Origin: Methylococcales bacterium
Lineage (GTDB): Bacteria > Pseudomonadota > Gammaproteobacteria > Methylococcales > UBA1147
Reading direction: 5' to 3'
Assembly (NCBI GenBank): GCA_041748915.1
Contig: JBGTCG010000091.1
Span: forward strand, 1-34,197
Length of the DNA: 34,197 nucleotides
Part shown: one piece after another, positions 4,810 to 24,090 of the stretch
Numbering within the stretch: position 1 is the stretch's first letter
How the letters are laid out: the number at the start of each line of letters is the position of its first letter
Translations under genes and position numbers: made by a program
Notes under the pieces: generated by a model
The model's input: the letters and a program-made list of their open reading frames with translations, nothing else
What the model was told of the DNA's origin: nothing
The model's database searches: none

Positions 4810-4815
4810 CTGGAT

Positions 4816-5667
4816 CTACGCTTCTCTTGGATCGTCGAAAAGATCGCAAACGGCCTCCAGTCCGCTTCGATTCAGCCGGATATCGGCCGCTTTCTGCACG
4901 GCGGGTTTAGCATGGTACGCGACGCTGAGCCCTGCCATTGACATCATTTCCAGGTCATTCGCGCCGTCCCCGATAGCAATCGCCTGCTCCGGATCAATCG
5001 ACAGACGCTTACAAGTTTCGAGCAAAAATTCGGCCTTCCCGGAAGCATCCATGAGTTTTCCCTGTATCCGCCCGGTCAGCCTGCCGTCAACCACTTCAAG
5101 AAGATTGGCTCTGCTCGCATACAGCGCGAAACGCTTCTCGAGCCGGTCGGTGAAATAGGTGAACCCGCCCGAAACCAGCGCAAAAGGTATCCCGCGGATT
5201 CGCAGTTCCTCGAGTAAAATGTCCGCGCCGCGATTGAGGCGTAATCGTTGTTGGTAAACTTCTTCGAGCTTTTCCACGGGCAGCCCCTGCAACAGAGCCA
5301 CGCGCTCGCGAAGCGCGCTTGGAAAATCGAGGTCTCCGCGCATCGCGGATTCGGTAATCGCGGCGACCTGGGGCTTGATCCCGAGCATATCCGCAATTTC
5401 GTCGATACATTCGATCGTTATAAAGGTCGAGTCCATATCGCTGACAACCAGCCTGATCCGGTCCGCGGCAAAGTGCTCGGGAATCACATTGATATCGAAT
5501 CCCAAGCGGTTCCCGAGGGCTTCGATGGCCTCCCGACTAACCGTTTTTGCGTGAAAAATTTGCGCGCTGTTCCGGCGCCGGACCAATTTTCCGCCTGTGG
5601 CCGCAAGTATCCGGCAGGCGTCAGCGCCGCTCAACGGCCCGCCATGCAGACACAGGCGACAGGTCAT
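4816..5667 (-). CDS. serB: phosphoserine phosphatase SerB (HAD superfamily)
   Basis: Motif I is DMDSTFITIECIDEIA. SGGFTYF and GDGANDLEMMSMAGLSVAYHAKP are collinear with E. coli SerB. The start overlaps the yejE stop by 4 nt, and the stop lies 6 nt before the yejF start. Confidence 0.85.
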   Translation of the reverse strand: MTCRLCLHGGPLSGADACRILAATGGKLVRRRNSAQIFHAKTVSREAIEALGNRLGFDINVIPEHFAADRIRLVVSDMDSTFITIECIDEIADMLGIKPQVAAITESAMRGDLDFPSALRERVALLQGLPVEKLEEVYQQRLRLNRGADILLEELRIRGIPFALVSGGFTYFTDRLEKRFALYASRANLLEVVDGRLTGRIQGKLMDASGKAEFLLETCKRLSIDPEQAIAIGDGANDLEMMSMAGLSVAYHAKPAVQKAADIRLNRSGLEAVCDLFDDPREA

Positions 5668-7076
5668 AAATGCAGATAGTTCATGCGCGGATCAAACGCA
5701 TCGCGTACCGCATCGGCGAACAGGTTGGCGGCAAGAACCAGCGTGAACATGAACACGAAGGCCGCCGCGAGCGACCACCAGACCACCGGCTCACGCGCCA
5801 TTTCCAGCCGCGCGCTGTTAATCATGTTGCCCCAGCTGTTGGTGGTCGGATCGACGCCAATATTCACGTAAGAAAGCACCGCTTCGGCCAGCACCAGTCC
5901 GCTGAAATCGAGTACAACCGTGATCAACACAATATGAAAAACATTCGGAAGAATGTGCCGGATCAGGATCATGTGGTCTTTCACGCCCAGCGTCAGCGCG
6001 GCTTGAACATATTCCATTTCCCGCAGCTTCAGCGTTTCCGCCCGCAGCAGACGGCACAGGCCCGTCCAACTGGTAATCCCCAGAATCAGGCACAGGAACA
6101 GCAGCCGGGTGTCCGCGCGCACCGCGATGGTATTAAAGTTTTCTTCATGCTTCGCCATATACACCTGAACGACCAGGATCGACGCGGCAATCAGGAGCAC
6201 GCCCGGAATTGAATTCAATGTCGTATACAGATATTGAATGATGTCATCGATCCAGCCCCGGTAATAACCGGCAAGAATTCCGAGCGATAACGCAAACGGC
6301 AGCATGATCAGCGTGGTCACGGTTCCGATTACGAGGCCGGTCCGAACGCTTTTCAGGCTCTGATAGAGGACATCCTGACCGACTTTATCGGTTCCGAATA
6401 CGTGATACTTTAAACTCAGATCGGCGACAGCCCAGGAAACGCACAGCATCAGGGTGAGTGTCACCATCATCGCGCGCCACGGGACCTCGGTTTGAGCTTT
6501 GCTAATCTCGGTAATATTTTCCCGGATCCTATCAGTATTCAAACTTCGCGAACGGATCGCGCACAGGCCGATCCCGATCAGCGCGGCCGCCAACAGGCCC
6601 TTGACCGTTCCGAACGAAGCGGTGGTCAATAGATCGGCTACCCGCTCCTGTTCCGGATCGTCAAGATGCGCGCCGCCATGGCGCAAGCGCGGGTAGCCCC
6701 ACGCTTTGGAGCTGTCCTCCTGGAGCATGAGTTCGCGGGCATAAAGTTGGACCGCAAACGGAGCGGAATAGGTTTTTTCGTCGCTCGCTCGAAGCGGGGC
6801 CGCCCACCAGTCAAAAAGGCTGAGCGGTTCGCTATCGAATTGCTGTTCCTGGCCGGTGCTTCCGCTGCCAGCGAATCGGAAATGGATCGTATCGAGCAGC
6901 CCGACCACAAAAAATCCAAGCAGAACCACCAGGGAAACCATTCCCGTCCGGCTGCGGGCGACCTTGCGCCAGGGCCGCCGCAGCAGTTCGTTGCCGGCGA
7001 TCCTGAACCCGAGCAGAAGGCCGATCGCGATCAGCAGAAAGATCAGCATATCGGTCCAGAAGAAAACCGGAATCAT
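5664..7076 (-). CDS. yejE: ABC transporter permease, OppC/DppC/YejE family, with an extended N-terminal region
   Basis: Multi-TM protein carrying the binding-protein-dependent transport EAA-like loop region. Its 470 aa is longer than E. coli YejE because of a ~130-aa N-terminal extension. Confidence 0.82.
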   Translation of the reverse strand: MIPVFFWTDMLIFLLIAIGLLLGFRIAGNELLRRPWRKVARSRTGMVSLVVLLGFFVVGLLDTIHFRFAGSGSTGQEQQFDSEPLSLFDWWAAPLRASDEKTYSAPFAVQLYARELMLQEDSSKAWGYPRLRHGGAHLDDPEQERVADLLTTASFGTVKGLLAAALIGIGLCAIRSRSLNTDRIRENITEISKAQTEVPWRAMMVTLTLMLCVSWAVADLSLKYHVFGTDKVGQDVLYQSLKSVRTGLVIGTVTTLIMLPFALSLGILAGYYRGWIDDIIQYLYTTLNSIPGVLLIAASILVVQVYMAKHEENFNTIAVRADTRLLFLCLILGITSWTGLCRLLRAETLKLREMEYVQAALTLGVKDHMILIRHILPNVFHIVLITVVLDFSGLVLAEAVLSYVNIGVDPTTNSWGNMINSARLEMAREPVVWWSLAAAFVFMFTLVLAANLFADAVRDAFDPRMNYLHL

Positions 7077-7083
7077 GGGCGTT

Positions 7084-8061
7084 TCAGGACAATCGAATCC
7101 GCGGATCGACCAGCGTGTAGGAAATATCGGTCAGCAACAGACCGAGGATATAAAGCGCCGAACCGAGGAAAACCATTGACCTCACAATGGCGAAATCCTG
7201 CGCGCTGATCGCATCGATGGTATAACTGCCAAGCCCGGGAATGCTGAAAAACGATTCCGTGATCAGGCTTCCCATGAACAGGGTCGGTAAGACGACCACG
7301 ACACCGGTCAAAATCGGAATCAGCGCATTCTGTAAAACATGCGTGAACAACACCCGCGGTTCGGACAATCCCTTTGCTCGGGCGGTCCGCACATAATCTT
7401 TCTCGACCTCCTCGAGAAACAAAATGCGGTACCATCGCGTGCCCGATCCGAGACCCGAAACGACGCCGGTAAGGACCGGCAGAACCATGAATTTGACGGC
7501 GTTCAGGCCCGTGTCATAGCCGGAAATCGGCACCAATTGAAGAAATTTACCGACCACGAACTGACCGAAAATAATATAAAAAAGCGTGGATACCGACATC
7601 ATGATCACGCACAGAATCCCGCCCCAGGTTTCAAAATAGGTCGAGCGGAAGAATACCATCATGACCGCAAAGCTGATGTTTGCGATCAGCCCGAATAGCA
7701 GGGAAGGAACCGCGATTGCGAGGCTTGGCCACATGCGCTGATAAATATCGGAACCGATATTGCGCCCGCTGTCCGAACGGCCGAACCGGAAAAGAAACAA
7801 CCCGATCGACTTGCTGTAAAAAATGGTTTCCGTGATTTTTCCGGAGCCGTGTGCCTCCTCGTTCCAGAGCAAGGGCAAATCGTAGCCATGCTGCTCTTTC
7901 CACTGCTGCACCGCTTCATCGGTTACACGTTTCTCGCCCAGTTGCATGCGCGCCATGTCGTCCGGCGTGTTGACCACAAAGAACAGCAGAAAGGTCAGAA
8001 TATTCACACCGAGCAGCAGCGGAAACGCGTATAAAATACGGCGGATGATGTAATAAGTCAC
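7084..8061 (-). CDS. yejB: ABC transporter permease, OppB/DppB/YejB family
   Basis: Six-TM permease with a conserved N-terminus MTYYIIRRILYAFPLLLGVNILTFLLF typical of OppB-family proteins. It sits 5 nt downstream of the SBP gene. Confidence 0.86.
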   Translation of the reverse strand: MTYYIIRRILYAFPLLLGVNILTFLLFFVVNTPDDMARMQLGEKRVTDEAVQQWKEQHGYDLPLLWNEEAHGSGKITETIFYSKSIGLFLFRFGRSDSGRNIGSDIYQRMWPSLAIAVPSLLFGLIANISFAVMMVFFRSTYFETWGGILCVIMMSVSTLFYIIFGQFVVGKFLQLVPISGYDTGLNAVKFMVLPVLTGVVSGLGSGTRWYRILFLEEVEKDYVRTARAKGLSEPRVLFTHVLQNALIPILTGVVVVLPTLFMGSLITESFFSIPGLGSYTIDAISAQDFAIVRSMVFLGSALYILGLLLTDISYTLVDPRIRLS

Positions 8062-8065
8062 CGAT

Positions 8066-10297
8066 CTAAAACGCGGTAGCGTGCAACTTGCGCCGGTATA
8101 ACAACCACGCCGGCAAGGTGAGCGCGAGTACCGTTAGAACCAGAATCACGAGCGGCCATATTTTGGGCCGGTTCCATTCCTTGCGTATCGATTCGCGTTG
8201 CACGGTCTCGATCCTCTGATATTTGAGATTGTTGGTCGCCATCAAGTTCGGCTTCAGATTTTTATACCAGCCGTGGAACAGACTGAAGTTTTTTGGATGC
8301 ATTCCAAATAACCACGGAGCGTCATGCCGGACGATCTCCTGGAGTTCCTGAATCAGTCTGAAGCGTTCACCCCCGTTGTCCATATTCCGCATCCGTTCGA
8401 ACAGCTTGTCAAATCGGGGATTCTGGTAATTTACGGCATTTTCACCGCCGTTCTTGACTTTCGCGTTCGGCCCATAGAGCAGGAAAAAGAAATTTTCCGG
8501 ATCCGGATAATCGGCATTCCATCCCCACATGAAAATCTGGGCATTGCCGGTCCGGATTTTCTGCTGAAAACGATTATAGTCGGTCGCCCGAATCACCAGT
8601 TGAATACCGAGCTTGGCGAATTGCTTTCTGAACCAGTTCAATCGCGCCTTGTCATCGGGCCCGGTCGCCACGGTGTCGAAATACAAGACCCAAGGTTGGC
8701 CGGTCGTTGGATTTCGCCCGCCCTGGTAGCCGGCCTCGTTCAATAACCTTTTTGCTTCATCGAGACTCTTGCGCCGCGGCTCCCCGTTCACCCATTCATA
8801 GACATAAGAATTGATTCCCTCGTTGCCCTCCTGATAGCCGAAGATGCCGGGAGGCAGCATCCCTTGCGCCGCAATTCCCCTTCCATTCATGAATATCGAG
8901 ATAAATTCCTCGTAATCCACCGCAATGGCGATCGCCTGCCGCAATCTCCTGGCTTTTTTGGCGCCGCCGCCGACGACGGGATCGAGCATATTGAATCCAA
9001 GGTAAAAAATCGAGGTGGCGACGGTGGTCTCCAAATTGATCCCGTTGCGTTTAAGGTTCTCGGTCAATTCAACATCGCCCGCGCCGGAAAACTTAACCGC
9101 CTGGTCGAAGCTGTCCGACGAAATCGCGGATGCATCGTAGTAACCCTGAAGAAACTTGTTCCAATAAGGAATATCCTCCCTTTCCAGCATGAAGACGACC
9201 TGATCAATAAACGGCAACAGTTTCCCCCGATCCGTCAGAAGTCCGTTCGACGCATCGCTAGGCTCGCCTTCCCCGGGATAATTTTCACCGTGAAAATTCG
9301 GGTTTTTGACCAGTACCATCCTCCGGTTCGGATTGTTTTCCGCCAACATATAGGGCCCGGTTCCGACCGGATACCAATCCAGGATGATGTTCTTTTCAAC
9401 CAGCCCAGGCTGATAATAAAAATCAACCGCCTCCCAGGGCATCGGAGCAAAAAACGGCATCGCGAGCCAATATTGGAATTGAGGATATTTGCCACGAAGG
9501 GTAATCCGATAACGGTATCGGTCTAGTATTTCCGCGCCTTGCACGGAGAATCGTTTAAGATCCAGGCCTTGGCCCTTATTTTTCGCTCCCTCGAGCTCCC
9601 CGGCCAATTCCGAAAGGCCCACAATATAGCCTTTCATGAATTCGGCGATCGGGGAATGACTCCTCGGATCCACGAGACGTTTGATCTGGTAGACATAATC
9701 CTCGGCAATCAACTCGCGGCTGTCCGTGTGGTCAAAATCCGCGATCGACTGGATTCCGCGCAACTCGTCGGGACTTAAATCGTGATACAGGAACTCACCC
9801 TGGCCGCTTCTGGCAAACGCCGGGTGCGGCTGATAGCGAATGCCGGCTTGAATGGTAATCACATAATCGCTGAAGGCGATTTTTTTTTCGTCACTTTCGA
9901 CCGGAAGAATTTGACCTTCCCGGTCCCGGTAAATGACCGTCGGCACCGCGACTGCTGTCAAAGGCACCAGTGTATAAGGACGCAGAAGATAGTGATATTG
10001 CAGTGCCGGTTCGTAGATCTGGGAAATCAGCGCGTATTCGTTGGCGCTGTAGGATACCGCTGGATCCAGATGTTTAGGCCTTTCGGAAAACGACGTGTAT
10101 AGAATCGGCTTGGAGGCCTCGACTTCCGGATACGGGTTGTTCCAGCCGGATTCATCACATCCGGAAAGAGGGGCAGCCATAACAAGCAGGAACCCGGCAA
10201 TCTGTGCAACGCAGGGATACCACCCGCCAGCGTACCTTAGAGGACTCGCTAAAACTGCTGAGACCACGAGATTGATATTGGATCCAAGTCTACGCAT
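8066..10297 (-). CDS. yejA: extracellular solute-binding protein family 5 (YejA/OppA-like) with lipobox and an unusual C-terminal hydrophobic anchor
   Basis: 743 aa. Signal ends ...LLVMAAPLSGC (lipobox). The SBP_bac_5-like body is first in the operon. The C-terminus IWPLVILVLTVLALTLPAWLLYRRK is a predicted TM helix. Confidence 0.8.
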   Translation of the reverse strand: MRRLGSNINLVVSAVLASPLRYAGGWYPCVAQIAGFLLVMAAPLSGCDESGWNNPYPEVEASKPILYTSFSERPKHLDPAVSYSANEYALISQIYEPALQYHYLLRPYTLVPLTAVAVPTVIYRDREGQILPVESDEKKIAFSDYVITIQAGIRYQPHPAFARSGQGEFLYHDLSPDELRGIQSIADFDHTDSRELIAEDYVYQIKRLVDPRSHSPIAEFMKGYIVGLSELAGELEGAKNKGQGLDLKRFSVQGAEILDRYRYRITLRGKYPQFQYWLAMPFFAPMPWEAVDFYYQPGLVEKNIILDWYPVGTGPYMLAENNPNRRMVLVKNPNFHGENYPGEGEPSDASNGLLTDRGKLLPFIDQVVFMLEREDIPYWNKFLQGYYDASAISSDSFDQAVKFSGAGDVELTENLKRNGINLETTVATSIFYLGFNMLDPVVGGGAKKARRLRQAIAIAVDYEEFISIFMNGRGIAAQGMLPPGIFGYQEGNEGINSYVYEWVNGEPRRKSLDEAKRLLNEAGYQGGRNPTTGQPWVLYFDTVATGPDDKARLNWFRKQFAKLGIQLVIRATDYNRFQQKIRTGNAQIFMWGWNADYPDPENFFFLLYGPNAKVKNGGENAVNYQNPRFDKLFERMRNMDNGGERFRLIQELQEIVRHDAPWLFGMHPKNFSLFHGWYKNLKPNLMATNNLKYQRIETVQRESIRKEWNRPKIWPLVILVLTVLALTLPAWLLYRRKLHATAF

Positions 10298-10349: not shown

Positions 10350-11864
10350 TTAGCCATGCGCTGCGTTCAGGATCGTCGGAGATTGAATCGCCGCTTCCTG
10401 CGAATCGTTTAGGTCTTGCGCGGATCGAAGGCGGTTATCCGTCAACGCACCCTTTTTGCCTGGATCGCTTTTCCCGAAAGAATCGTAATGGGCAATTTCA
10501 TCGAACGATTTGTCGAAATCCAGAACGACGCTGGTCAGGTTTTCTAAAATCACAGAACGCATATTCTCCGAATAACTTTCGTCGGATAAAACATTACAGG
10601 CGTCGAGTAAGGACTTCAATCCATCGGAATGGATTGAATACCGTTGCGAGGCCAGTTCGCTATTAACACTGGAAATCGATGTCTTTCCTTCCGCGATGAT
10701 CTTTAAGGCGTCGGTTTTACCGTTGGCCCAGATCCGATAGGCTTCTGCCCTATCCTGCGCCGCCTGTTTCTCGGCGAGAGCTTTTTCCTTGATCAACAAG
10801 GTATCGTTATCCGCGCCGGCCTTCGCCTGAATAAGATGGATCCGATGCATCCTTTCCGCCCGTGCGAGTTCCCTTTCGGTCTCAATTTCTTCTTCGGCCC
10901 TGACGATTTCTGCCTTGGCCAGAGTTGCGTCGATGTAAACTTGGGTTTGACTCATGGCATTCTGCGCCAGTACGGCATCTCGATTCTGTTCAGACAGTTT
11001 GACCTTTTGATCTACAAGAATCCTCGATTGTTCTGTTTCATAGACGGCCCGTGCGTCCGCTTTCTGTTTTTCGATCCTGATCGCCGTCTGGTGGGCGATC
11101 ATTTCCTGTTCGTCCGTAAATTGCTGATTCAGTTTTTCCTGGTTTAGCTTCTGGATGATTTGGTCGGCCTCCGTCTGTTTCCGGCAAACTTCGATTCTGG
11201 CACCCTGCTCCAAGTCATTCCGCATTTTCTTCTCCGCTTCGACAAGTTCCGTAATCTTTGTCAATCCCGGTGCATCGAGCGCATTATCCGGATCATAATA
11301 GCTTTTGCCGGTTTGTCCTAAAAAGGATACCGATATCGTTTCCAGCAACAGCCCATAGTTGAACAAAGGTTCGGCTGAAAGTTCACGAACCCTCGACACG
11401 AAGTTCTGCTCATTCGTTTGCAGTTCAGCAAGCGTAAATTCAATCGCCGCCTGGCGGATAGACGTAATTAACAGGCTGCTTAAAAAACGATTGAGCTGGG
11501 TCGTGTCCAAGGTACGATATCCAAGTGTCTGCGCCGCGATCATGATATCGAGGTCCACCGGATTCACTTTCAGGTAAAACACGACACAAACGTCCGCTCG
11601 CAGGCGATCCTTCGTAATGACCGAATTTTCTTTAATCCGGTCAATTTCGATCGGGTTCGAATTCAAACTGACCGGAATCGCCTTATGCAAAATCGGAAGG
11701 ACAAAGTCACCGCCATTTAAAATCACCTTCTCACCACCGTAGCCGGTTCGTACATAAACCAGGCTTTTGGTGGCACGAACGAAGAGTTTCGACAGAATAA
11801 AGCCACCGCCCCCCAGGATGAAGATCAAAAAACCGATTAAAAAAATCAAAGAATGGATATTCAT
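10350..11864 (-). CDS. flotillin-like SPFH/band-7 domain membrane protein (YqiK-like)
   Basis: N-terminal TM (LIFLIGFLIFILGGGGFIL), an SPFH core, then a long Ala/Glu/Gln-rich coiled-coil (EQ..EA repeats) typical of flotillins. No NfeD partner is adjacent. Confidence 0.82.
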   Translation of the reverse strand: MNIHSLIFLIGFLIFILGGGGFILSKLFVRATKSLVYVRTGYGGEKVILNGGDFVLPILHKAIPVSLNSNPIEIDRIKENSVITKDRLRADVCVVFYLKVNPVDLDIMIAAQTLGYRTLDTTQLNRFLSSLLITSIRQAAIEFTLAELQTNEQNFVSRVRELSAEPLFNYGLLLETISVSFLGQTGKSYYDPDNALDAPGLTKITELVEAEKKMRNDLEQGARIEVCRKQTEADQIIQKLNQEKLNQQFTDEQEMIAHQTAIRIEKQKADARAVYETEQSRILVDQKVKLSEQNRDAVLAQNAMSQTQVYIDATLAKAEIVRAEEEIETERELARAERMHRIHLIQAKAGADNDTLLIKEKALAEKQAAQDRAEAYRIWANGKTDALKIIAEGKTSISSVNSELASQRYSIHSDGLKSLLDACNVLSDESYSENMRSVILENLTSVVLDFDKSFDEIAHYDSFGKSDPGKKGALTDNRLRSAQDLNDSQEAAIQSPTILNAAHG

Positions 11865-12096: not shown

Positions 12097-12122
12097 CGTG
12101 ATTATATATAAATCACGTGATT
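12097..12122. promoter_or_regulatory. compound palindrome CGTGATT-ATATATA-AATCACG overlapping AATCACGTGATT in the divergent flotillin / cyclase intergenic region; candidate operator
   Basis: Perfect 7-bp arms around an AT spacer, plus an overlapping 12-bp self-complementary site containing CACGTG. Located about 230-270 bp from both divergent gene starts. Confidence 0.35.
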
Positions 12123-12362
12123 AGTCCATACTTCTAAACCAAACTATAAATTTTTTGATGTAGGTCGGAACTACCCGGGCAAAGTCTGGCAATTTGAAGA
12201 CCTTATAACCTCTACCGGTGCACGAATTTCGGCTCCGTATCCTGTGTCGATTCAGCGATCGATTCGGATCGGTATAGCTAAGGTATTTGAGCTCCCTTTA
12301 TAATGCGACTTCTGGAACCCGGAAGGTTCACGCGGCGGTAAGGATTTCTTGCAATATACTAC

Positions 12363-13340
12363 GTGGAATTAAGGCTTCAATCCTCCAGCGGGTTGAATTC
12401 AATCAACAAGAAGGAGACTTGGCAAACCATGAATGATGGCGATAAATCGCAAATGACGATTTTCTTTGCCGATGTCGCCGGCAGTGTCGAATTGTACGAT
12501 TCAATCGGCGATCGTTTAGCCCACGAAAAAATTGTCGGATGTCTGCAGCAGATGTCGCTGCTGATAGAAGATCGGGGCGGTCGAATCATTGAGATCATCG
12601 GCGATGAAATTATGGCGGCATTCGTACATCCTGACCAGGCCTTCGAAGCCGCCAGGCAGATTCAGCACGGGCTGAGCACCGAAACCGGAGCACAGATCGG
12701 AGTGCGGATCGGCTTTCACTGCGGATTGACCGCGGTAACCGAAGGGCATCCATACGGGGACACCGTGAATGTTGCCGCAAGGATGGTCAACCTTGCGAAA
12801 TCCGGCCAGATCATCACCAATCATCAGTCCGTGGAGTTTCTGTCGGAACTAAATCGGGCCAGGCTGCGAATTGTCGGTAAGGTCTTCATCAAAGGCAAAC
12901 CGGATCCCTATACCATTCATGAAGTGGTTTGGGATGAAAGCGAATGTACGGTGGTGTCGACCCTGCCTCGAACCGGTTTCGTTAACCGCCGACGTAACGA
13001 AGCGTCGGTTTTTTTGAAATATAAAGGCCGGCTACTGAACCTCCGCGAATCTTCGGGTGAGTTGGTAGTCGGGCGCGGACAGCGATGCGGATTGGTCGTC
13101 GATTCCGGTGCTGCGTCCAGGATGCATGCCGTGGTTAGTTGCCGGAACGGCATGATCGTGATCAAAGATCAAAGCACGAACGGAACTTTTATTCGAACGT
13201 TCGAGGGCAAGCGGGCGGCCGACGGCATCGAACTGATTATTCATGGCGACGAATGGATGGCGGATGCCGCCGGAATTTTCTCTCTCGGCGCCTCGATCGA
13301 AAAGGACGATCCGAATTTGATCTATTTTCGGATGAACTGA
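12363..13340 (+). CDS. class III adenylate/guanylate cyclase catalytic domain fused to a C-terminal FHA (phosphothreonine-binding) domain
   Basis: Cyclase motifs FFADVAGSVELY, IGDEIMAAF, GDTVNVAARM. C-terminal FHA signature VVGRGQRCGLVVDSGAASRMHAVV...DQSTNGTFI. The ORF starts at a GTG at 12363; an in-frame ATG at 12429 is more likely. Confidence 0.85.
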   Translation: MELRLQSSSGLNSINKKETWQTMNDGDKSQMTIFFADVAGSVELYDSIGDRLAHEKIVGCLQQMSLLIEDRGGRIIEIIGDEIMAAFVHPDQAFEAARQIQHGLSTETGAQIGVRIGFHCGLTAVTEGHPYGDTVNVAARMVNLAKSGQIITNHQSVEFLSELNRARLRIVGKVFIKGKPDPYTIHEVVWDESECTVVSTLPRTGFVNRRRNEASVFLKYKGRLLNLRESSGELVVGRGQRCGLVVDSGAASRMHAVVSCRNGMIVIKDQSTNGTFIRTFEGKRAADGIELIIHGDEWMADAAGIFSLGASIEKDDPNLIYFRMN

Positions 13341-13380
13341 AATGCCGATGGTCTCGAAACAACCCTGACCTGCGCGAAAA

Positions 13381-13911
13381 ATGAGAGTTTTCGACGTCAA
13401 ATTGAATCGAATCCGGTCCAAGGTTCCATTTGACCTCGGAATCGTGGCAATGAGTTGGGGCACCGGACTACTGCGCACGATTTATGTTTGGATTCTGTTT
13501 GCATTTCCGTCCGCGACTCCGGCCTGTGGGCCGGTCGATCGGACCGCAGAGATCCAAATCAACGGTTACCGGATTACGGCTGAATTGGCCGTCGCCGAGC
13601 ATGAAAAAAACTGCGGACTTTCCCTCAGGGATTCGTTACCTGAAGATCACGGAATGCTTTTTGTTTATTTCGAGGATCGGATGATGATTTTCTGGATGAA
13701 GGATACCCGCATTCCACTGTCCATCGCGTTTCTCGACGCTGGCGGCTATATTCTGAATATTCTCGAAATGAAACCGATGAACACCGATACATTCTACCGC
13801 TCCTCCGCTCCCGCGCGTTACGCCCTGGAAATGTCCGCGAAATGGTTTGCGGAACATTATGTTGAGGTGGGCGACCGGGTGGCGATCCATTGGTCCGAAA
13901 AATTCGAATGA
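13381..13911 (+). CDS. DUF192 (COG1430) family protein, probably secreted
   Basis: DUF192-like core GLSLRDSLPEDHGMLFVY...IPLSIAFLD.GGYI...M.P...Y.S..PARYALEM...V.VGDRV. An alternative ATG at 13453 gives a signal-peptide-like N-terminus MSWGTGLLRTIYVWILFAFPSATPA. Confidence 0.7.
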   Translation: MRVFDVKLNRIRSKVPFDLGIVAMSWGTGLLRTIYVWILFAFPSATPACGPVDRTAEIQINGYRITAELAVAEHEKNCGLSLRDSLPEDHGMLFVYFEDRMMIFWMKDTRIPLSIAFLDAGGYILNILEMKPMNTDTFYRSSAPARYALEMSAKWFAEHYVEVGDRVAIHWSEKFE

Positions 13912-14600
13912 GTATGGCTTCGGCAATGGAGGAATCGTTGCGCGCGGACCGGGCGAACCTTTATTACGTTCACGATCCGATGTGTAGCTGGTGTTTTGCA
14001 TTTGAACCGGTCTGGGAATCTGTGTGCGCCAGACTGCCGGCTTCTGTGGAGGCCGTGCGTATACTGGGCGGCCTCGCGCCCGATACCGATCAGCCGATGG
14101 CGGCATCAATGCAGTCCAGAATCCAACAAATCTGGCATACCATCGAAATTGCAGTTCCCGGAACCAGCTTCAATTTTGATTTCTGGAGAGTCGCCACTCC
14201 GCGCCGGGCTACTTTCCCGGCCTGTCGTGCGGTAATCGCCGTCGCTCGACACGCCCCCGAGCTTGAAACGGAAATGATTCGTCTGATTCAGAACGCCTAT
14301 TATCGCGAGGCAAGAAATCCGTCGGACCAACAGACCCTGATAAATCTTGCAGACTCGCTTGGTCTCGACCGGCAACAATTTGCCGCAGATCTCGATTCTC
14401 GGGAAACGGTTGCGGAACTGAATCATCAGATTGCTTTTTCGCGCCAGCTAGGTGTTGAGACCTTTCCTTCCTTAGTTTTCCATAATTCCGCCTTGGGCTG
14501 CCGACTGCTGGACATCGACTACCAAAATGCGGAATTCCTGTTGCAACAAATCATTCATTTGTCTGAAGCCAGTCATGACTACACCGGGTCTAATCGCTGA
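13908..14600 (+). CDS. DsbA-like thioredoxin-fold protein (COG3531-type predicted protein-disulfide isomerase)
   Basis: CxxC active site within YYVHDPMCSWCFAFEP and a DsbA-family alpha-helical insert. The start overlaps the DUF192 stop (ATGA at 13908-13911), suggesting translational coupling. Confidence 0.72.
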   Translation: MSMASAMEESLRADRANLYYVHDPMCSWCFAFEPVWESVCARLPASVEAVRILGGLAPDTDQPMAASMQSRIQQIWHTIEIAVPGTSFNFDFWRVATPRRATFPACRAVIAVARHAPELETEMIRLIQNAYYREARNPSDQQTLINLADSLGLDRQQFAADLDSRETVAELNHQIAFSRQLGVETFPSLVFHNSALGCRLLDIDYQNAEFLLQQIIHLSEASHDYTGSNR

Positions 14601-14676: not shown

Positions 14677-14698
14677 CCGGTGCGGAGCTCCGCACCGG
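14677..14698. terminator. perfect 22-bp palindrome CCGGTGCGGAGCTCCGCACCGG, 77 bp after the DsbA-like stop; terminator-like stem or protein site (no U-tract)
   Basis: Read directly from the sequence; fully self-complementary. Confidence 0.3.
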
Positions 14699-14936
14699 AC
14701 CAGGGATGCCGTCCTTTGCATTGGGGGTTAACTGCACAGACTTAATGCCATTCGGAACAAAACCGGGACAATTCTTTTCCGGATGACGCCTAATAACTGG
14801 TACGAGTTTGTCAGAGCACTGGTATATCTTGGCGATCATCATAGTGGTCTGAACATTACGCCTGCCTTAACAAAACATTACGGTTTAGTAATGTTCGCGA
14901 TCGGAACTTTAGGCCGGGCGTCGTTCCGCCGGATAC

Positions 14937-14986: not shown

Positions 14987-15658
14987 ATGCAGCTTTTGAT
15001 CATAGAAGACGACATGAAAACCGCAGCCTACCTCTGCAAGGGCTTGAAAGAGAGCGGACACAATGTCGATCATGCGGCGGACGGCAAAGACGGATTGTTC
15101 ATGGCCATGGAAAACGAATATGACGCGATCGTGATTGACCGTATGTTGCCCGCGCTGGATGGCCTATCGGTAATTCGTACTTTACGGGCTGCGAATAAGA
15201 GCACGCCGGTGCTGGTCCTGAGTGCACTTGGCGAAGTGGATGACCGGGTAAAGGGGCTAAAGGCCGGTAGTGATGACTATCTGGTGAAACCCTTTGCCTT
15301 TTCCGAATTGATGGCCAGGCTGGAGGCGCTGACCCGCCGATCTGAAGGAGATAATTCGCAAACCGCTCTGAAGGTCGGCGACCTGGAGATGGACTTGCTC
15401 TCGCGCGAAGTGCGGCGGGCCGGCACTCCAATCGAATTGCAGCCCCGTGAGTTTCGCTTGCTCGAATACCTGATGCGTCATGCGGGGCAGGTCGTGACCC
15501 GGACCATGTTGCTCGAAAATGTCTGGGACTATCATTTCGATCCGCAAACTAATGTGATCGATGTTCATATCAGCCGCTTGCGTGGAAAAATCGATCGCGA
15601 GTTCGATCCACCCTTGCTGCACACCATCCGCGGTGCGGGCTACTCTCTCCGTGCGTAA
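14987..15658 (+). CDS. OmpR-family response regulator, CusR/CopR-like
   Basis: Receiver domain (IIEDD...D54-like, KPFAFSELMARL) and winged-helix output. Near-collinear with E. coli CusR as recalled (VLSALGEVDDRVKGLKAGSDDYLVKPFAFSELMARLEALTRR). Confidence 0.9.
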   Translation: MQLLIIEDDMKTAAYLCKGLKESGHNVDHAADGKDGLFMAMENEYDAIVIDRMLPALDGLSVIRTLRAANKSTPVLVLSALGEVDDRVKGLKAGSDDYLVKPFAFSELMARLEALTRRSEGDNSQTALKVGDLEMDLLSREVRRAGTPIELQPREFRLLEYLMRHAGQVVTRTMLLENVWDYHFDPQTNVIDVHISRLRGKIDREFDPPLLHTIRGAGYSLRA

Positions 15659-17030
15659 AATCAGCCTGCTCCGTAGTTCGACGTTCTTTCTGACCATGAG
15701 CTATGTGTCGGTTTTCACGTTATCGACGCTGATGTTGATGGCCTTTATCTATCTCCATACTTCCAGTTACATGGTTCAACAGACTGACGCAATTATCGAA
15801 TCGGAAATCAATGGACTTAGAGAAAGTTATCGTCATGACGGAATACCGGGCTTGACCCTGTTGATTGCCAGCCGGGTCAAGCCGGAGTCGGTCGGCTCGG
15901 TCATCCTGCTTTTGGTCGACCCCCGGCTCAACGTGGTAGTCGGAAATCTGAACCGTTGGCCGAATGTTCCTGGAACCCCGGATGGTTGGCTTAATTTCAA
16001 ACTGGAAGACAGACCAACAGTCGATGAGACGGCGCGGTGGGCTCGCGCGCGAAGATACCGATTGGCCGAAGGTTTTCTTTTGTTGGTCGGACGCGATCTG
16101 CACGATCTCGAGATGAGCAGGAAAGCAATCGCGAGAACTTTGATCTGGGGACTGGTCATCGCAGCGATCATGGCTTTGGTGGGTGGACTTACCATGACGC
16201 GGAGGCTTTTAAGGCGGCTCGAATTGATTAACCAGACCAGTCACGAAATCATCAACGGGGACTTGTCGCGGCGAATTCCGACCGACAATACCGGAGATGA
16301 TTTCGACCAATTATCCACCAACTTAAATCAGATGCTGGACTGGATTGGAGAGCTTATGGAAGGAGTGCGCCGGGTTTCAGATAATATTGCCCATGACCTC
16401 AGGACGCCACTGGCTCGATTGCGGAACCACCTGGACGAACTCAAAAGTGATTGCAAAGATGTCGACGATGCCGAACCGGTGGAACAGGCGATCCAGGAAG
16501 CCGACGGATTACTTGCGACCTTTAACGCGCTGCTCCGGATCGCACGAATAGAATCTGAAAAACAGCCGGATTATCTTGTCGACGTTGATTTGTCGACGGT
16601 AATTCGGGACGCAGTTGATCTTTACGAGCCCCTGGCCGAGGAAAAATCACAAAGCCTCGAGGTAAGCATTCCGGGAACACAGAACAATATCCGTGGCGAT
16701 CGAGATTTATTATCGCAAGTGGTCGCGAATATTTTGGATAATGCCGTTAAGTACACCCAACCCGCGGGTACCATCCAAGTGAATTTATCGAATGGCCCGC
16801 TCTCCGTGAGCCTGATGATTGCGGATTCCGGAAGCGGAATTCCGGTCGGCGAACGGGAAAAGGTATTCCAGCGATTCTACCGCCTGGAGTCCAGCCGGAG
16901 TAGTCCAGGCAACGGGCTCGGGCTGAGCCTGGTAGCTGCTGTGGTCACTTTGCACAATGCCAAAATCCGGCTCGAAGGTAATCGGCCTGGACTCCGGGTG
17001 GTCATTGATTTCCCAAAACCCCGGCACTGA
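15651..17030 (+). CDS. sensor histidine kinase (HAMP + HisKA + HATPase_c), partner of the upstream response regulator
   Basis: Two TMs flank a ~140-aa periplasmic domain. H-box AHDLRTPLARL, N-box, G-boxes DSGSGIP / GNGLGLSLV. A GTG at 15651 overlaps the RR stop (GTGCGTAA); alternative ATG at 15696. Confidence 0.86.
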   Translation: MRKISLLRSSTFFLTMSYVSVFTLSTLMLMAFIYLHTSSYMVQQTDAIIESEINGLRESYRHDGIPGLTLLIASRVKPESVGSVILLLVDPRLNVVVGNLNRWPNVPGTPDGWLNFKLEDRPTVDETARWARARRYRLAEGFLLLVGRDLHDLEMSRKAIARTLIWGLVIAAIMALVGGLTMTRRLLRRLELINQTSHEIINGDLSRRIPTDNTGDDFDQLSTNLNQMLDWIGELMEGVRRVSDNIAHDLRTPLARLRNHLDELKSDCKDVDDAEPVEQAIQEADGLLATFNALLRIARIESEKQPDYLVDVDLSTVIRDAVDLYEPLAEEKSQSLEVSIPGTQNNIRGDRDLLSQVVANILDNAVKYTQPAGTIQVNLSNGPLSVSLMIADSGSGIPVGEREKVFQRFYRLESSRSSPGNGLGLSLVAAVVTLHNAKIRLEGNRPGLRVVIDFPKPRH

Positions 17031-19930: not shown

Positions 19931-20935
19931 TCAAGGTAAAGGCGCAGTTTCCTGGATCCGTTCAAGCACTCGAAGGCGAACCGGCGCGTTCTGGTTATCA
20001 GGAAATTTACGGGCAAAAAAATGAGGGGTATGCTCCAGCCGGTCTAAATCTTCGACACCTAAAACACGGGGACTCCAGCCTTCGTACGTACTCACGAACG
20101 TGTTGAGGGGGCCCAGGTGGAAATTCGAATTTCCCAACAAGGTCTGTATCGAAATTTCAGCGATGTCCCTAAAACGGCGATAATGGTCGTTAAGCGCAGG
20201 TTCCGTCAGACGGCGCGCGAGATATTCGCAAACTGGACGTGTAGCGCCGATCCAAGTGGTCCCAATCAATGGGTTCAGGCCTGGCTCTGGCAAATACCGG
20301 CCAAACAAGCCGATCCGAGCCAAGCGTATGATCAAGTAACCGATAACTGCCTCAGGATGCCGCCAGAGGTTTTGCGGGCCTCGTACAATCTGCACGCCGG
20401 CCATTTCTTCCTTACGGGGATTCGTGCCGACGTACCAGCGCCGGGCGCGTATCAATAGCGAATGGCGCAACGTCTTATCGGGCGCGTAACATCTTTGTCC
20501 GAATGACACCATTACATCTCGGTCCGTTGAAGGATCGAGAAATTCTGCATGGGCATCAACGGAACTCTGGGCAATGTATCTCTCGAACTCCGACAGTGGT
20601 TTGATCGGTAGACAGGCGGGACTCATCAACTGCAAATAATCAAACTCGACTTGCTCGACGCAATATTTGATCAGATGGATGACCCCTTCGGTAAATGCCC
20701 AAACGCCATACCCCGTGCGTTTGGGGTCAGGCACGTAGCACGTGTTAGCAGCCTTGATCGAGAAGTTCGGTTGCTGGCTGAAATCATGGTGAATCACCAC
20801 CCTGTAAGGATACAGGGACAAAACCAGTTGCTCCACGATTGCAGGGCTGGCAACTGCGGACATCAACCCGAATATGATTCGGGGCGGTCGCCCGATAGAA
20901 GTTTTGGGAGATCCCGCGTTGTTACCGTCGTTCAT
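19931..20935 (-). CDS. putative glycosyltransferase, GT14 / core-2 I-branching-enzyme-like
   Basis: The N-terminal pattern RIIFGLMSAVASPAIVEQLVLSLYPYRVVIHHD matches the '(I)AYLI.AHkn..ql.rLl..LY.P...fhiHvD' start of bacterial GT14 proteins, recalled from memory. Confidence 0.5.
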   Translation of the reverse strand: MNDGNNAGSPKTSIGRPPRIIFGLMSAVASPAIVEQLVLSLYPYRVVIHHDFSQQPNFSIKAANTCYVPDPKRTGYGVWAFTEGVIHLIKYCVEQVEFDYLQLMSPACLPIKPLSEFERYIAQSSVDAHAEFLDPSTDRDVMVSFGQRCYAPDKTLRHSLLIRARRWYVGTNPRKEEMAGVQIVRGPQNLWRHPEAVIGYLIIRLARIGLFGRYLPEPGLNPLIGTTWIGATRPVCEYLARRLTEPALNDHYRRFRDIAEISIQTLLGNSNFHLGPLNTFVSTYEGWSPRVLGVEDLDRLEHTPHFFARKFPDNQNAPVRLRVLERIQETAPLP

Positions 20936-21231: not shown

Positions 21232-21792
21232 TTAGGAATCCGTCTTTTTTACTGCTTGATCCGTCTTACCGGAAGGAATCTCCCCAATATCTTCGGGCCC
21301 GACGGGACCCGCGGTCGCGCCGCCGCTTATGCGACTTGCCTTCCAGATTCCAGGACACGCATTCACCGCATCTTTCCAGTTGCCTTTCGCTGAATTGGTC
21401 TCCGCTGAAAATGTCCCGAACAGTTCAGCCGCATCGTAGCCGGAATAGATCAGCATGGCTTTAATCCTGCCCGTGCTGTCAATCGTTCCGTCGACTTTAT
21501 ATTCAAATCCCGATTTATTCGTAATCTTACCGGTTATCTTGGAATTTTCAATCGTCACGGTTCCCAAACCTGTTTCGTGACCGCAAACCGGTTCATTGGT
21601 ACCATCTTCATTACCGGTTCGTCCGGTGACTTCCCATACTCCGTTGAACCGCTCGAGTTCTCCGGGCGCTACGGACTGGGCAATACCATCACCTTCGTGG
21701 CCACGGCCGGACAGCTCGGAACCGCTCGGATCGCATCCGGCGAGCAGCCAGGCAGAGGTCAACCCCATAACTAAAAACGTTCTTACGGTCAT
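21232..21792 (-). CDS. hypothetical lipoprotein
   Basis: Signal peptide plus lipobox MTVRTFLVMGLTSAWLLAGC. Mature protein is Gly/Thr-rich with two further Cys. The ORF track extends to 21840, but Met-17 gives a canonical signal. Confidence 0.6.
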   Translation of the reverse strand: MTVRTFLVMGLTSAWLLAGCDPSGSELSGRGHEGDGIAQSVAPGELERFNGVWEVTGRTGNEDGTNEPVCGHETGLGTVTIENSKITGKITNKSGFEYKVDGTIDSTGRIKAMLIYSGYDAAELFGTFSAETNSAKGNWKDAVNACPGIWKASRISGGATAGPVGPEDIGEIPSGKTDQAVKKTDS

Positions 21793-21871
21793 AGCCTTAT
21801 GATCTTTTGATAGGAGCGATCGACTCGATAACGGATGCAATAACGTATCACAGGTCGACTTCGCACTCCAC

Positions 21872-23832: not shown

Positions 23833-24090
23833 TTCAAAGTACAGTCGACACGAACAGAAACAGAGGCTCCGGCGCCAATCGGGAAAGCGGTCCGCTCCCT
23901 GTGACCCGAACCCGCATCGATTCAGGCTCGCATGAACGACCCGGTCCGTGCCTCAATTGCTTAATGGGTCAGCCGAGGCATTATGGCAGGGCAAGACTTA
24001 ACCCTGAATGCGCAGCCAATGCGTGCGGGTCGTATGAAACCGGGAATCTTAATTCGTTGCTGACCGTGACCGGCTTTTTGCGCAAAGAAA

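What the first reader, a model, noticed from the sequence alone, without database searches (positions are those of the whole stretch)
12363..14600. Tightly packed three-gene unit: class III nucleotidyl cyclase with FHA, a DUF192 secreted protein and a DsbA-like CxxC thioredoxin
The cyclase (FADVAGS, GDEIMAAF, GDTVNVAARM) carries a C-terminal FHA domain (GR...SRMHAVV...STNGTF). That implies its activity or localisation is gated by a phospho-threonine partner, i.e. Ser/Thr-kinase input into cAMP or cGMP synthesis. It is followed by a DUF192 protein (41-bp gap to the ORF start at 13381; 113 bp if the alternative ATG at 13453 is used) and a DsbA-like protein whose start overlaps the DUF192 stop (ATGA). 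I am not aware of a described functional link between these three families. The cyclase gene is divergent from a flotillin/SPFH gene, with a strong palindromic operator candidate between them.
Basis: partly seen in the sequence, partly recalled or inferred. Interest (0 to 1): 0.55.

Follow-up and report, generated by a model that had tools for sequence, protein, structure and literature searches.

The report
FHA-linked cyclase in a lineage-specific cluster
The three genes are real, but they sit together only in one narrow group of uncultured gammaproteobacteria; the notable part is the cyclase, which belongs to a large kinase-linked family and carries guanylate-cyclase-type substrate residues.

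Summary
All three ORFs and their domains are confirmed. They are a class III cyclase with a C-terminal FHA domain (12429-13340), a secreted DUF192 protein (13450-13911) and a cytoplasmic CxxC DsbA-like protein (13908-14600).

The gene order recurs only in a narrow clade of Methylococcales-like metagenome contigs. Six contigs were verified with all three genes. One more has the cyclase and DUF192 but no DsbA-like gene. Outside that clade I found no linkage. None of 80 cyclase-FHA loci has a DUF192 or DsbA-like neighbour, and none of 80 DsbA-like loci has DUF192 or the cyclase.

The cyclase-FHA family is large: 2,413 50%-identity clusters at E<=1e-30. Its recurring neighbours are a HEAT-repeat Ser/Thr kinase and a PP2C phosphatase, often in an operon.

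The catalytic and FHA phosphopeptide-binding residues are intact. The window protein belongs to a coherent minority clade in which the ATP-specifying Lys/Asp pair is replaced by Glu/His. That is a guanylate-cyclase-type pair, so cGMP synthesis is predicted but not shown.

The "operator" palindrome is real. It lies outside the conserved promoter and leader region and is absent from relatives. Overall this is an ordinary lineage-specific cluster around a moderately interesting, uncharacterised cyclase subfamily.

The parts
12429..13340 (+). Class III nucleotidyl cyclase with C-terminal FHA domain, 303 aa. Cyclase domain is residues 1-169 (12429-12935). The flexible linker includes conserved Thr174 (12948-12950). 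The FHA domain is about residues 188-303 (12990-13337).
   Evidence: Pfam PF00211 3.4e-13 and PF00498 1.9e-9. 303-aa homologues. AF2 model with mean pLDDT 88; residues 176-187 have pLDDT below 50. Foldseek best match is Ma1120, TM 0.90, rmsd 1.9 A.
12591..12593 (+). Codon for Glu55, at the position of the ATP-specifying Lys (Ma1120 K101).
   Evidence: Alignment to PDB 4wp9/5d0g. E in 119 and K in 91 of 211 family members. Codon checked.
12747..12749 (+). Codon for His107, at the position of the ATP-specifying Asp (Ma1120 D157).
   Evidence: It covaries strictly with Glu55: 114 E/H against 90 K/D.
12240..12428 (+). Conserved promoter/leader block in front of the cyclase. It holds a -10-like TATAAT at 12299-12304, a small hairpin at about 12383-12400, and a GAAGGAG ribosome-binding site at 12410-12416.
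   Evidence: Alignment of seven related loci whose upstream genes all differ. Structure support is weak. No Rfam match.
13450..13911 (+). DUF192 protein, 153 aa (176 aa if started at 13381). It has an N-terminal hydrophobic signal segment followed by an invariant Cys.
   Evidence: Pfam PF02643 2.4e-26. PDB 3pjy 3.1e-14 and 3m7a. Homologues are 151-159 aa.
13908..14600 (+). Cytoplasmic DsbA-like thioredoxin-fold protein with an invariant MCSWC motif (VP2116 / 2IN3 family). It has no signal peptide.
   Evidence: Pfam Thioredoxin_5 and DSBA. Profile against PDB: 3kzq 8.8e-72, 2in3 5e-35, DsbM 5hfi 3.5e-17, YjbH-like 6ghb 1e-16. Alignment A2.
12097..12122 (.). It lies outside the conserved cyclase upstream block.
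10350..11864 (-). SPFH/flotillin gene, divergent neighbour in this contig only.
   Evidence: Pfam Band_7 1.1e-12. NCBIfam FloT model 8.3e-9, far below its cut-off. It is not next to the cyclase in any related locus.
14847..14897 (+). Conserved box upstream of the response-regulator gene. It contains the exact palindrome CATTAC-N6-GTAATG at 14876-14893 and marks a separate transcription unit.
14987..17030 (+). CopR/CusR-like response regulator (14987-15658) and heavy-metal-type sensor kinase (probable start 15696, end 17030). They lie downstream of the trio in 5 of 7 related loci.
   Evidence: Pfam. NCBIfam cztR_silR_copR 271 bits (cut-off 279) and cztS_silS_copS 176 bits (cut-off 292). Gene tables. 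Start codons.

Best explanation
**What is there**
- The locus is the left end of a lineage-specific syntenic block in an uncultured Methylococcales-like gammaproteobacterium. It is not a general three-family system.
- Gene 1 encodes a soluble, homodimer-type class III nucleotidyl cyclase fused to an FHA domain.
- It belongs to a very large family of roughly 300-aa cyclase-FHA proteins. Their recurrent genomic partners are a HEAT-repeat Hanks-type Ser/Thr kinase and a PP2C phosphatase.

**Likely mechanism (inferred)**
- A kinase/phosphatase pair sets the phosphorylation state of a threonine. The site is either on a partner protein or on the nearly invariant Thr174 at the start of the disordered interdomain linker.
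- The FHA domain binds that phosphothreonine.
- This binding changes cyclase dimerisation or localisation, and so changes cyclic nucleotide output.

**Predicted substrate (inferred)**
- The window protein belongs to a coherent minority clade in which the two purine-specifying residues are Glu55/His107 instead of Lys/Asp.
- That pattern is typical of guanylate cyclases, so the predicted product is cGMP rather than cAMP.

**The other two genes**
- The periplasmic DUF192 protein and the cytoplasmic DsbM/VP2116-like CxxC oxidoreductase are probably co-transcribed with the cyclase in this lineage.
- The grounds are the same strand, gaps of 109 nt and -4 nt, no convincing terminator, and a conserved promoter/leader only in front of the cyclase.
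- There is no evidence that they work with the cyclase.

**Shown versus inferred**
- Shown: domains, intact catalytic and FHA residues, E/H-K/D covariation, and the neighbourhood statistics.
- Inferred: GTP specificity, the Thr174 phospho-switch and co-transcription.
For: - **Domains and fold:**
- **Conserved residues** in 211 family members: Asp15 210/211, Asp59 211/211, Asn114 203, Arg118 209, FHA Arg216 209, Ser230/His233/Asn251 210, Thr174 206.
- **Specificity pair:** 114 E/H, 90 K/D, a few E/R. A neighbour-joining tree built with those two columns masked has one split that separates 109/110 E-type from 89/90 K-type sequences.
- **Literature:** K101 and D157 of Ma1120 are the substrate-specifying residues. 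Guanylate cyclases carry Glu at the first position and C/S/T/H/A/G at the second. His occurs in a Dictyostelium guanylate cyclase (PMC4215837).
- **Kinase/phosphatase neighbours:** 21/76 and 14/76 K/D loci. Several are cyclase-PP2C(+5..+94 nt)-kinase(+780..+1010 nt) operons, or have a convergent kinase at +11..+135 nt. One E/H locus (L088) has a kinase at +68 nt. The control is 2/80.
- **Family size:** 2,413 50%-identity clusters at E<=1e-30. Of 144 top representatives, 123 are K/D, 7 E/H and 4 E/R.
- **Trio in a narrow clade only:**
- **Absent elsewhere:**
- **Compartments differ:** DUF192 has a signal segment. The DsbA-like protein has none, and its structural relatives are cytosolic.
- **Possible receptor:** a cNMP-binding-EAL protein lies next to an E/R cyclase in Motiliproteus (L003).
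Against: - No Ser/Thr kinase, PP2C or cyclic-nucleotide-binding protein is in the 34-kb window, so the proposed input and output partners are unseen here.
- Glu/His as a GTP-specifying pair rests on analogy. In Ma1120, residue swaps only partly converted specificity, and kinetics for the K101E/D157H double mutant were not given in the text read.
- Thr174 could be conserved for structural reasons. Its +3 position is not the conserved hydrophobic or acidic residue that many FHA domains prefer.
- The cyclase-DUF192 adjacency survives in 7 of 7 related loci while the upstream gene differs in every one. That pattern could reflect selection for co-expression rather than inertia.
Confidence: 0.65

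Rival explanations
1. The three genes form a true functional module. A cyclic-nucleotide signal gated by phosphothreonine would control, or be controlled by, an envelope/thiol-redox pair: periplasmic DUF192 with two invariant cysteines, plus a cytosolic CxxC reductase.
For: - Same order and strand in six verified loci, plus two more contigs inferred from matching contig lengths (13,090 and 4,775 bp).
- The upstream gene differs in every locus, yet the cyclase-DUF192 junction is never broken.
- ATGA start/stop overlap in the window.
- A conserved promoter/leader lies only before the cyclase.
- DUF192 has invariant Cys49 and Cys78.
Against: - No linkage in 80 cyclase-FHA loci or 80 DsbA-like loci from other lineages.
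- No linkage in cyclase homologues at 53-59% identity.
- No linkage in Nitrosococcus oceani or in a 50%-identical DUF192 homologue.
- One clade member keeps the cyclase and DUF192 but has no DsbA-like gene or remnant.
- The products sit in different compartments.
Confidence: 0.15
2. DUF192 and the DsbA-like protein belong functionally with the downstream CopRS/CusRS/HprRS-like two-component system, as a copper or oxidative envelope-stress regulon. The cyclase would merely be the next gene upstream.
For: - The response regulator and kinase score just under the heavy-metal subfamily cut-offs.
- The regulator-kinase pair follows the trio in 5 of 7 loci.
- A conserved regulator-type box lies upstream of the regulator gene.
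- Thiol-disulfide proteins and periplasmic proteins are typical members of such regulons (general knowledge).
Against: - The regulator box was not found convincingly upstream of DUF192 or the cyclase. The only hit is a 2-mismatch match inside the DUF192 coding region, at chance level.
- L082 keeps the trio but has a DegP-like protease gene in place of the two-component system.
- None of the 80 DsbA-like loci shows the DsbA-like gene followed by a same-strand regulator-kinase pair as here. Only 5 carry a regulator hit and 3 a kinase hit.
Confidence: 0.15
3. The cyclase is an ordinary adenylate cyclase, or a promiscuous or other-NTP cyclase. On this view the Glu/His pair does not confer GTP specificity.
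For: - The closest solved structures and sequence matches are adenylate cyclases: Ma1120, Rv1900c, CyaB.
- Specificity swaps in Ma1120 gave only partial conversion.
- Weak PycC (pyrimidine cyclase) HMM hits of 36-39 bits.
Against: - There is strict covariation of both specificity positions, and the pair is maintained across a deep monophyletic clade.
- Glu at the Lys position is the hallmark of guanylate cyclases, and His has a precedent (PMC4215837).
Confidence: 0.3
4. The locus is a Pycsar-like or other cyclic-nucleotide anti-phage defence locus.
For: Weak PADLOC PycC matches to the N-terminal half of the cyclase.
Against: - No effector with a cyclic-nucleotide-binding domain plus a TM or TIR domain is adjacent.
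- The neighbours have no PADLOC hits.
- The surrounding genes are housekeeping genes with uniform G+C content.
- The family is chromosomal and linked to a kinase and phosphatase.
Confidence: 0.02

Closest known systems
Ma1120 (Mycobacterium avium) and related minimal class III adenylyl cyclases (PDB 4wp9, 5d0e; Rv1900c 1ybt)
   Same: Same catalytic fold (Foldseek TM 0.90, rmsd 1.9 A). Both metal-binding Asp residues and the Arg are shared. The homodimer-type arrangement has all catalytic residues on one chain.
   Different: The window protein has Glu55/His107 where Ma1120 has Lys101/Asp157. It has the canonical Asn114 where Ma1120 has Ala. It carries a C-terminal FHA domain that no solved cyclase structure has: the best Foldseek matches cover only half the query (TMq <=0.50 in the matches listed).
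Bacterial and eukaryotic guanylate cyclases (Cya2 of Synechocystis, E/G pair; RhGC and CYG12, E/C pair; a Dictyostelium guanylate cyclase with His)
   Same: Glu at the first specificity position, and a non-Asp residue at the second, with His as one documented option (PMC4215837).
   Different: They are no closer in sequence than the adenylate cyclases are (3et6 2e-4, 6ao9 3e-4). cGMP synthesis is untested here. Regulation through an FHA domain has not been described for these enzymes, as far as my literature searches went.
FHA / Hanks-kinase / PP2C signalling cassettes (e.g. the mycobacterial FhaA/FhaB-PknB-PstP region, type VI secretion TagH/Fha-PpkA-PppA)
   Same: The FHA domain has intact Arg/Ser/His/Asn phosphopeptide-binding residues. 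It gives weak NCBIfam matches to FhaB/FipA and TagH. Family members sit in cyclase-PP2C-kinase operons.
   Different: The output here is a nucleotide cyclase fused to the FHA domain. In this window the kinase and phosphatase are not nearby.
VP2116 (PDB 3kzq) / NE 2IN3 family; more distantly the cytosolic disulfide reductase DsbM (5hfi) and YjbH-like UPF0413 (6ghb)
   Same: DsbA-like thioredoxin fold, invariant CSWC motif, no signal peptide.
   Different: It is not a periplasmic DsbA. Function is known only for the distant relatives. The family is normally not next to DUF192 or a cyclase.
DUF192 / COG1430 (PDB 3pjy, 3m7a; structural-genomics entries)
   Same: Full-length Pfam match and a signal segment.
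   Different: No function has been described. My DUF192 literature search returned nothing functional. This subfamily has two invariant cysteines.

Membership tests
Class III nucleotidyl cyclase (PF00211) | HMM match above the gathering score and the cyclase homology-domain fold | tested here: met
   50 bits against a cut-off of 21.9. AF2 model matched to Ma1120 with TM 0.90.
Class III nucleotidyl cyclase (PF00211) | Two metal-binding Asp residues and the transition-state Asn and Arg | tested here: met
   Asp15, Asp59, Asn114 and Arg118 are present and conserved in 203-211 of 211 relatives.
Adenylate cyclase (ATP-specific class III) | Lys/Asp substrate-specifying pair | tested here: not met
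   Glu55/His107 align with Ma1120 K101/D157.
Guanylate cyclase (GTP-specific class III) | Glu at the first specificity position, and C/S/T/H/A/G at the second | tested here: met
   Glu55 and His107. The residue rule comes from PMC4215837.
Guanylate cyclase (GTP-specific class III) | Demonstrated preference for GTP and production of cGMP | not testable with these tools
   This needs an enzyme assay.
FHA domain (PF00498) | HMM match plus the conserved Gly-Arg, Ser-x-x-His and Asn-Gly phosphothreonine-binding residues | tested here: met
   38.3 bits against a cut-off of 20.7. Arg216, Ser230, His233 and Asn251 are near-invariant.
FHA / Ser-Thr kinase signalling cassette | A Hanks-type kinase and/or PP2C phosphatase encoded nearby | tested here: inconclusive
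   Met for the family: 21/76 and 14/76 K/D loci, and 1 E/H locus. Not met in this window.
Conserved three-gene module (cyclase-FHA + DUF192 + DsbA-like) | Gene order conserved across phylogenetically distant genomes | tested here: not met
   Found only in a clade whose cyclases are at least 67% identical where checked. There are 0/80 and 0/80 in wider samples, and one clade member lacks the DsbA-like gene.
Periplasmic DsbA oxidase | Signal peptide plus a CxxC thioredoxin fold | tested here: not met
   The CSWC motif is present, but there is no N-terminal hydrophobic segment in any of 19 family members. The closest solved relatives include the cytosolic DsbM.
DUF192 (PF02643) | Full-length HMM match above the gathering score | tested here: met
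   92.2 bits against a cut-off of 27, covering profile positions 1-96 of 96.
Pycsar anti-phage system | PycC cyclase adjacent to an effector with a cyclic-nucleotide-binding domain | tested here: not met
   Only weak partial PycC hits. The neighbours have no PADLOC or cNMP_binding hits.

The most novel reading that the evidence does not exclude
The Glu/His clade of cyclase-FHA proteins would be phosphothreonine-gated guanylate cyclases. That would make Ser/Thr-kinase-controlled cGMP signalling widespread in Gamma- and Deltaproteobacteria. In this Methylococcales-like lineage the signal would additionally be wired, through one operon, to a periplasmic DUF192 protein and a cytosolic DsbM-like reductase, giving both orphan families a first functional context.
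Probability: 0.1. Interest if true: 0.65.

Novelty: new variant of a known kind. Interest (0 to 1): 0.35.

Why it matters
- Bacterial cGMP signalling has been shown in only a few organisms (Synechocystis Cya2, Rhodospirillum centenum, Xanthomonas; my own knowledge plus the papers listed).
- A deep, coherent clade of soluble cyclases carries guanylate-cyclase-type specificity residues together with an intact FHA domain. It gives a concrete, cheap test case.
- The test has two parts: does GTP replace ATP as substrate, and does a Hanks kinase/PP2C pair switch the enzyme?
- The three-gene "unit" matters less. It is a lineage-specific cluster, so on its own it should not be used to assign functions to DUF192 or to the VP2116/DsbM-like family.

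Tried and rejected
- **Pycsar or other defence system.** Only weak PycC hits and no effector. Rejected.
- **Riboswitch or known RNA in the conserved cyclase leader or elsewhere.** No Rfam hit at gathering threshold in the whole window. Only chance-level hits at E<=10 in 12200-12460. RNAalifold gave -3.2 kcal/mol with little covariation. Not pursued.
- **The palindrome as a conserved operator.** Absent from all 170 loci fetched at that point and outside the conserved block. Rejected for the cyclase.
- **Conserved element in the cyclase-DUF192 spacer.** The alignment shows no shared motif.
- **DsbA-like remnant in L171.** tblastn on the 468-nt gap gave only E=2.6, so the gene is truly absent.
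- **Literature on cyclase-FHA proteins and on DUF192.** Searches and look-ups found no functional study. One search failed on term syntax.
- **Organism identity.** The cluster look-up gave no name for the window's own proteins. One look-up (P0172) was not on record.
- **Outgroup-rooted tree.** Rooting on the partial Ma1120 sequence gave a messy picture, so I replaced it with an unrooted bipartition test.
- **AF2 interdomain geometry.** The tool returns no coordinates, so I could not test whether Thr174 docks on the FHA domain.
Full report
**Observation.** The window carries three consecutive plus-strand ORFs at 12363/12429-13340, 13381/13450-13911 and 13890/13908-14600.
- Guanylate_cyc (3.4e-13) plus FHA (1.9e-9) in the first ORF.
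- DUF192 (2.4e-26) in the second.
- Thioredoxin_5/DSBA (2.2e-14 / 6.8e-12) in the third.
- Band_7/SPFH in the divergent upstream gene.

**Coordinate corrections.**
- The cyclase starts at ATG 12429. This gives 303 aa, the length of essentially all homologues, and a conserved GAAGGAG lies 12 nt upstream.
- The DUF192 alternative start is ATG 13450, not 13453. It is the better-supported start, since homologues are 151-159 aa. The spacer is therefore 109 nt.
- The ATGA overlap at 13908-13911 is real.

**The cyclase-FHA protein.**
- The closest solved relative is the minimal class III cyclase Ma1120, at E 8.5e-13 by sequence and TM 0.90, rmsd 1.9 A by fold.
- An AlphaFold2 model from 114 sequences has two confident domains and a disordered linker at residues 176-187. 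The pTM of 0.56 means the domain arrangement is undefined.
- Across 211 relatives the metal-binding Asp15/Asp59, transition-state Asn114/Arg118 and the KGK motif are conserved. So are the FHA phosphothreonine-binding residues Arg216, Ser230, His233 and Asn251.

**Substrate-specifying residues.**
- The two positions that specify the purine are Glu55 and His107. They align with K101 and D157 of Ma1120, and with the E and G of its designed KDA-to-EGY mutant 5d0g.
- In the family the two positions covary almost perfectly: 114 E/H, 90 K/D and a few E/R.
- In a neighbour-joining tree built without those two columns, one split separates 109/110 E-type from 89/90 K-type sequences. This points to a single ancient switch that has since been maintained.
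- The published rule is Lys/Asp in adenylate cyclases, and Glu plus C/S/T/H/A/G in guanylate cyclases, with His seen in a Dictyostelium guanylate cyclase (PMC4215837).
- I therefore predict GTP as substrate, with moderate confidence. This is inference, not demonstration.

**Family size and partners.**
- A profile search of 1.84 billion representatives finds 2,413 50%-identity clusters at E<=1e-30, nearly all about 300 aa.
- Among 144 top representatives, 123 are K/D, 7 E/H and 4 E/R. The window's type is a minority.
- I clustered the neighbours of 86 loci. The most frequent real neighbours were a roughly 800-aa HEAT-repeat Pkinase protein and a PP2C phosphatase, both confirmed by Pfam.
- With phmmer, the kinase is within 8 kb in 21/76 K/D loci and PP2C in 14/76.
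- Several loci have the arrangement cyclase, then PP2C at +5..+94 nt, then kinase at +780..+1010 nt. Others have a kinase convergent at +11..+135 nt.
- One E/H locus (L088, 53% identical to the window protein) has a convergent kinase at +68 nt.
- In 80 control loci anchored on the DsbA-like gene, the kinase appears twice.
The window itself has no kinase, PP2C or cyclic-nucleotide-binding gene.
- Thr174, just before the disordered linker, is conserved in 206/211 and 140/144 sequences and follows an acidic stretch. I propose it as a candidate phospho-site read by the FHA domain in cis or across the dimer. This is speculative.

**The three-gene unit.**
- The order cyclase-DUF192-DsbA-like is present in the window and in five further contigs. 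These are L081, L082, L085 and L086, with cyclases 80, 70, 68 and 67% identical, and L090, reached through the DsbA-like protein.
- Matching contig lengths across the three hit lists suggest two more (13,090 and 4,775 bp).
- L171 has cyclase-DUF192 followed directly by the response-regulator gene. There is no DsbA-like gene and no remnant.
- The upstream gene is different in all seven loci. It is flotillin, two different methyltransferases, an ATP-grasp protein, DUF2956, a small ORF or OMP decarboxylase.
- Downstream, a CopR-like regulator, a sensor kinase and usually FadD follow in five of the seven.
- Outside this clade the linkage vanishes:
  - Cyclase homologues at 58-59% and 53% identity have other neighbours.
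  - 0 of 80 cyclase-FHA loci from species-representative genomes has a DUF192 or DsbA-like gene within 8 kb.
  - 0 of 80 metagenomic loci of the DsbA-like family (43-59% identity) has DUF192 or the cyclase.
  - Nitrosococcus oceani and a 50%-identical DUF192 homologue show no linkage.
- The products also sit in different compartments. DUF192 has a signal segment followed by an invariant Cys.
- The DsbA-like protein has no signal peptide. It belongs to the VP2116 (3kzq, 8.8e-72) / 2IN3 family, and its characterised distant relatives are the cytosolic reductase DsbM and YjbH-like proteins.
- My reading is that these three genes form a probably co-transcribed cluster fixed in one lineage. They are not a general functional system.

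**Regulatory DNA.**
- About 190 nt upstream of the cyclase ATG is conserved in all seven loci despite the different upstream genes. The block includes a -10-like TATAAT (12299-12304), a small hairpin and the ribosome-binding site.
- Structure support for the leader is weak, and Rfam finds nothing.
It is absent from all 170 loci fetched at that point.
- It may serve the flotillin promoter or may be incidental.
- A different, conserved box with the exact palindrome CATTAC-N6-GTAATG sits about 94 nt upstream of the response-regulator gene. It is present in the window, L081, L090 and L171, and nearly so in L086.
- This marks the CopR/CusR-like two-component system as a separate transcription unit.

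**Comparison and verdict.**
- The cyclase is a member of class III, with all defining catalytic features met. It is not a canonical adenylate cyclase, because the Lys/Asp test is not met. It matches the residue rule for guanylate cyclases.
- The FHA domain meets its sequence criteria.
- I found no solved structure and no functional paper for the cyclase-FHA architecture.
- The DUF192 and DsbA-like proteins are ordinary members of their uncharacterised families.
- The locus is not a defence system.
- Novelty lies in the E/H cyclase-FHA subfamily, a new variant of a known kind, and not in the trio.
- Interest is modest at 0.35. The kinase-linked, guanylate-cyclase-like family is a testable lead.

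Noticed in passing
window 14847-14897 (palindrome 14876-14893); L081 8598-8615; L090 5890-5907; L171 6809-6826: A conserved block of about 55 nt, GTCTGAAyATTAC-N6-CCTTAACAAAACATTAC-N6-GTAATG, lies about 94 nt upstream of the CopR/CusR-like response-regulator gene in five related loci. It is probably the regulator's own binding box.
   Followed up: partly
window 12240-12428: About 190 nt upstream of the cyclase is conserved in all seven related loci, although the upstream genes all differ. The block holds a -10-like TATAAT at 12299-12304, a small hairpin at about 12383-12400 next to the ribosome-binding site, and a fixed 12-nt spacing between that site and the ATG. There is no Rfam match and only weak covariation.
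   Followed up: partly
window 12948-12950 (Thr174 of the cyclase-FHA protein): A nearly invariant threonine (206/211 and 140/144 sequences) follows an acidic stretch (W-x-x-[DE]-D-x-T). It sits at the start of the AF2-disordered interdomain linker and is a candidate phospho-acceptor for FHA binding.
   Followed up: partly
L003 6319-7551 (Motiliproteus sp. MSK22-1), minus strand: A cNMP_binding + EAL protein is encoded divergently, right next to an E/R-type cyclase-FHA gene. It is a candidate cyclic-nucleotide receptor that would link this cyclase family to c-di-GMP turnover. PAS-GGDEF-EAL genes also follow E/H cyclases in L002 (8979-11423) and L087 (8209-11535).
   Followed up: partly
L050 8812-12354; L083 7321-8418: MscS/MscK-type mechanosensitive channel genes lie directly downstream of E/R-type and E/H-type cyclase-FHA genes in two unrelated loci.
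   Followed up: no
window 14677-14698: A strong G+C-rich hairpin, CCGGTGCGGAGCTCCGCACCGG, lies in the 386-nt spacer after the DsbA-like gene. Its T-run is on the minus strand only, yet no convincing minus-strand gene lies to its right.
   Followed up: no
window 13450-13911 (DUF192): This DUF192 subfamily has two invariant cysteines. One comes immediately after the signal-peptide hydrophobic core, in a lipobox-like xxAC context. The other is in the motif CGLS. Either a lipoprotein or a disulfide is possible.
   Followed up: partly
window 15561-17030: The mechanical ORF for the sensor kinase overlaps the response-regulator gene by about 100 nt. Homologue lengths of 443-459 aa point to ATG 15696 as the real start.
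   Followed up: partly
window 3139-10297 (minus strand): This is an oligopeptide-type ABC transporter operon: SBP_bac_5, two permeases and a fused double ATPase. A HAD-family hydrolase gene (4816-5667) is inserted between the permease and ATPase genes, and the binding protein is unusually long at 743 aa.
   Followed up: no
window 22105-25668 (minus strand): A carbamoyltransferase gene lies next to a B12-binding radical SAM/DUF4070 gene. Several nearby ORFs have no Pfam or NCBIfam match: 19931-20935, 21232-21840 and 32128-33171.
   Followed up: no
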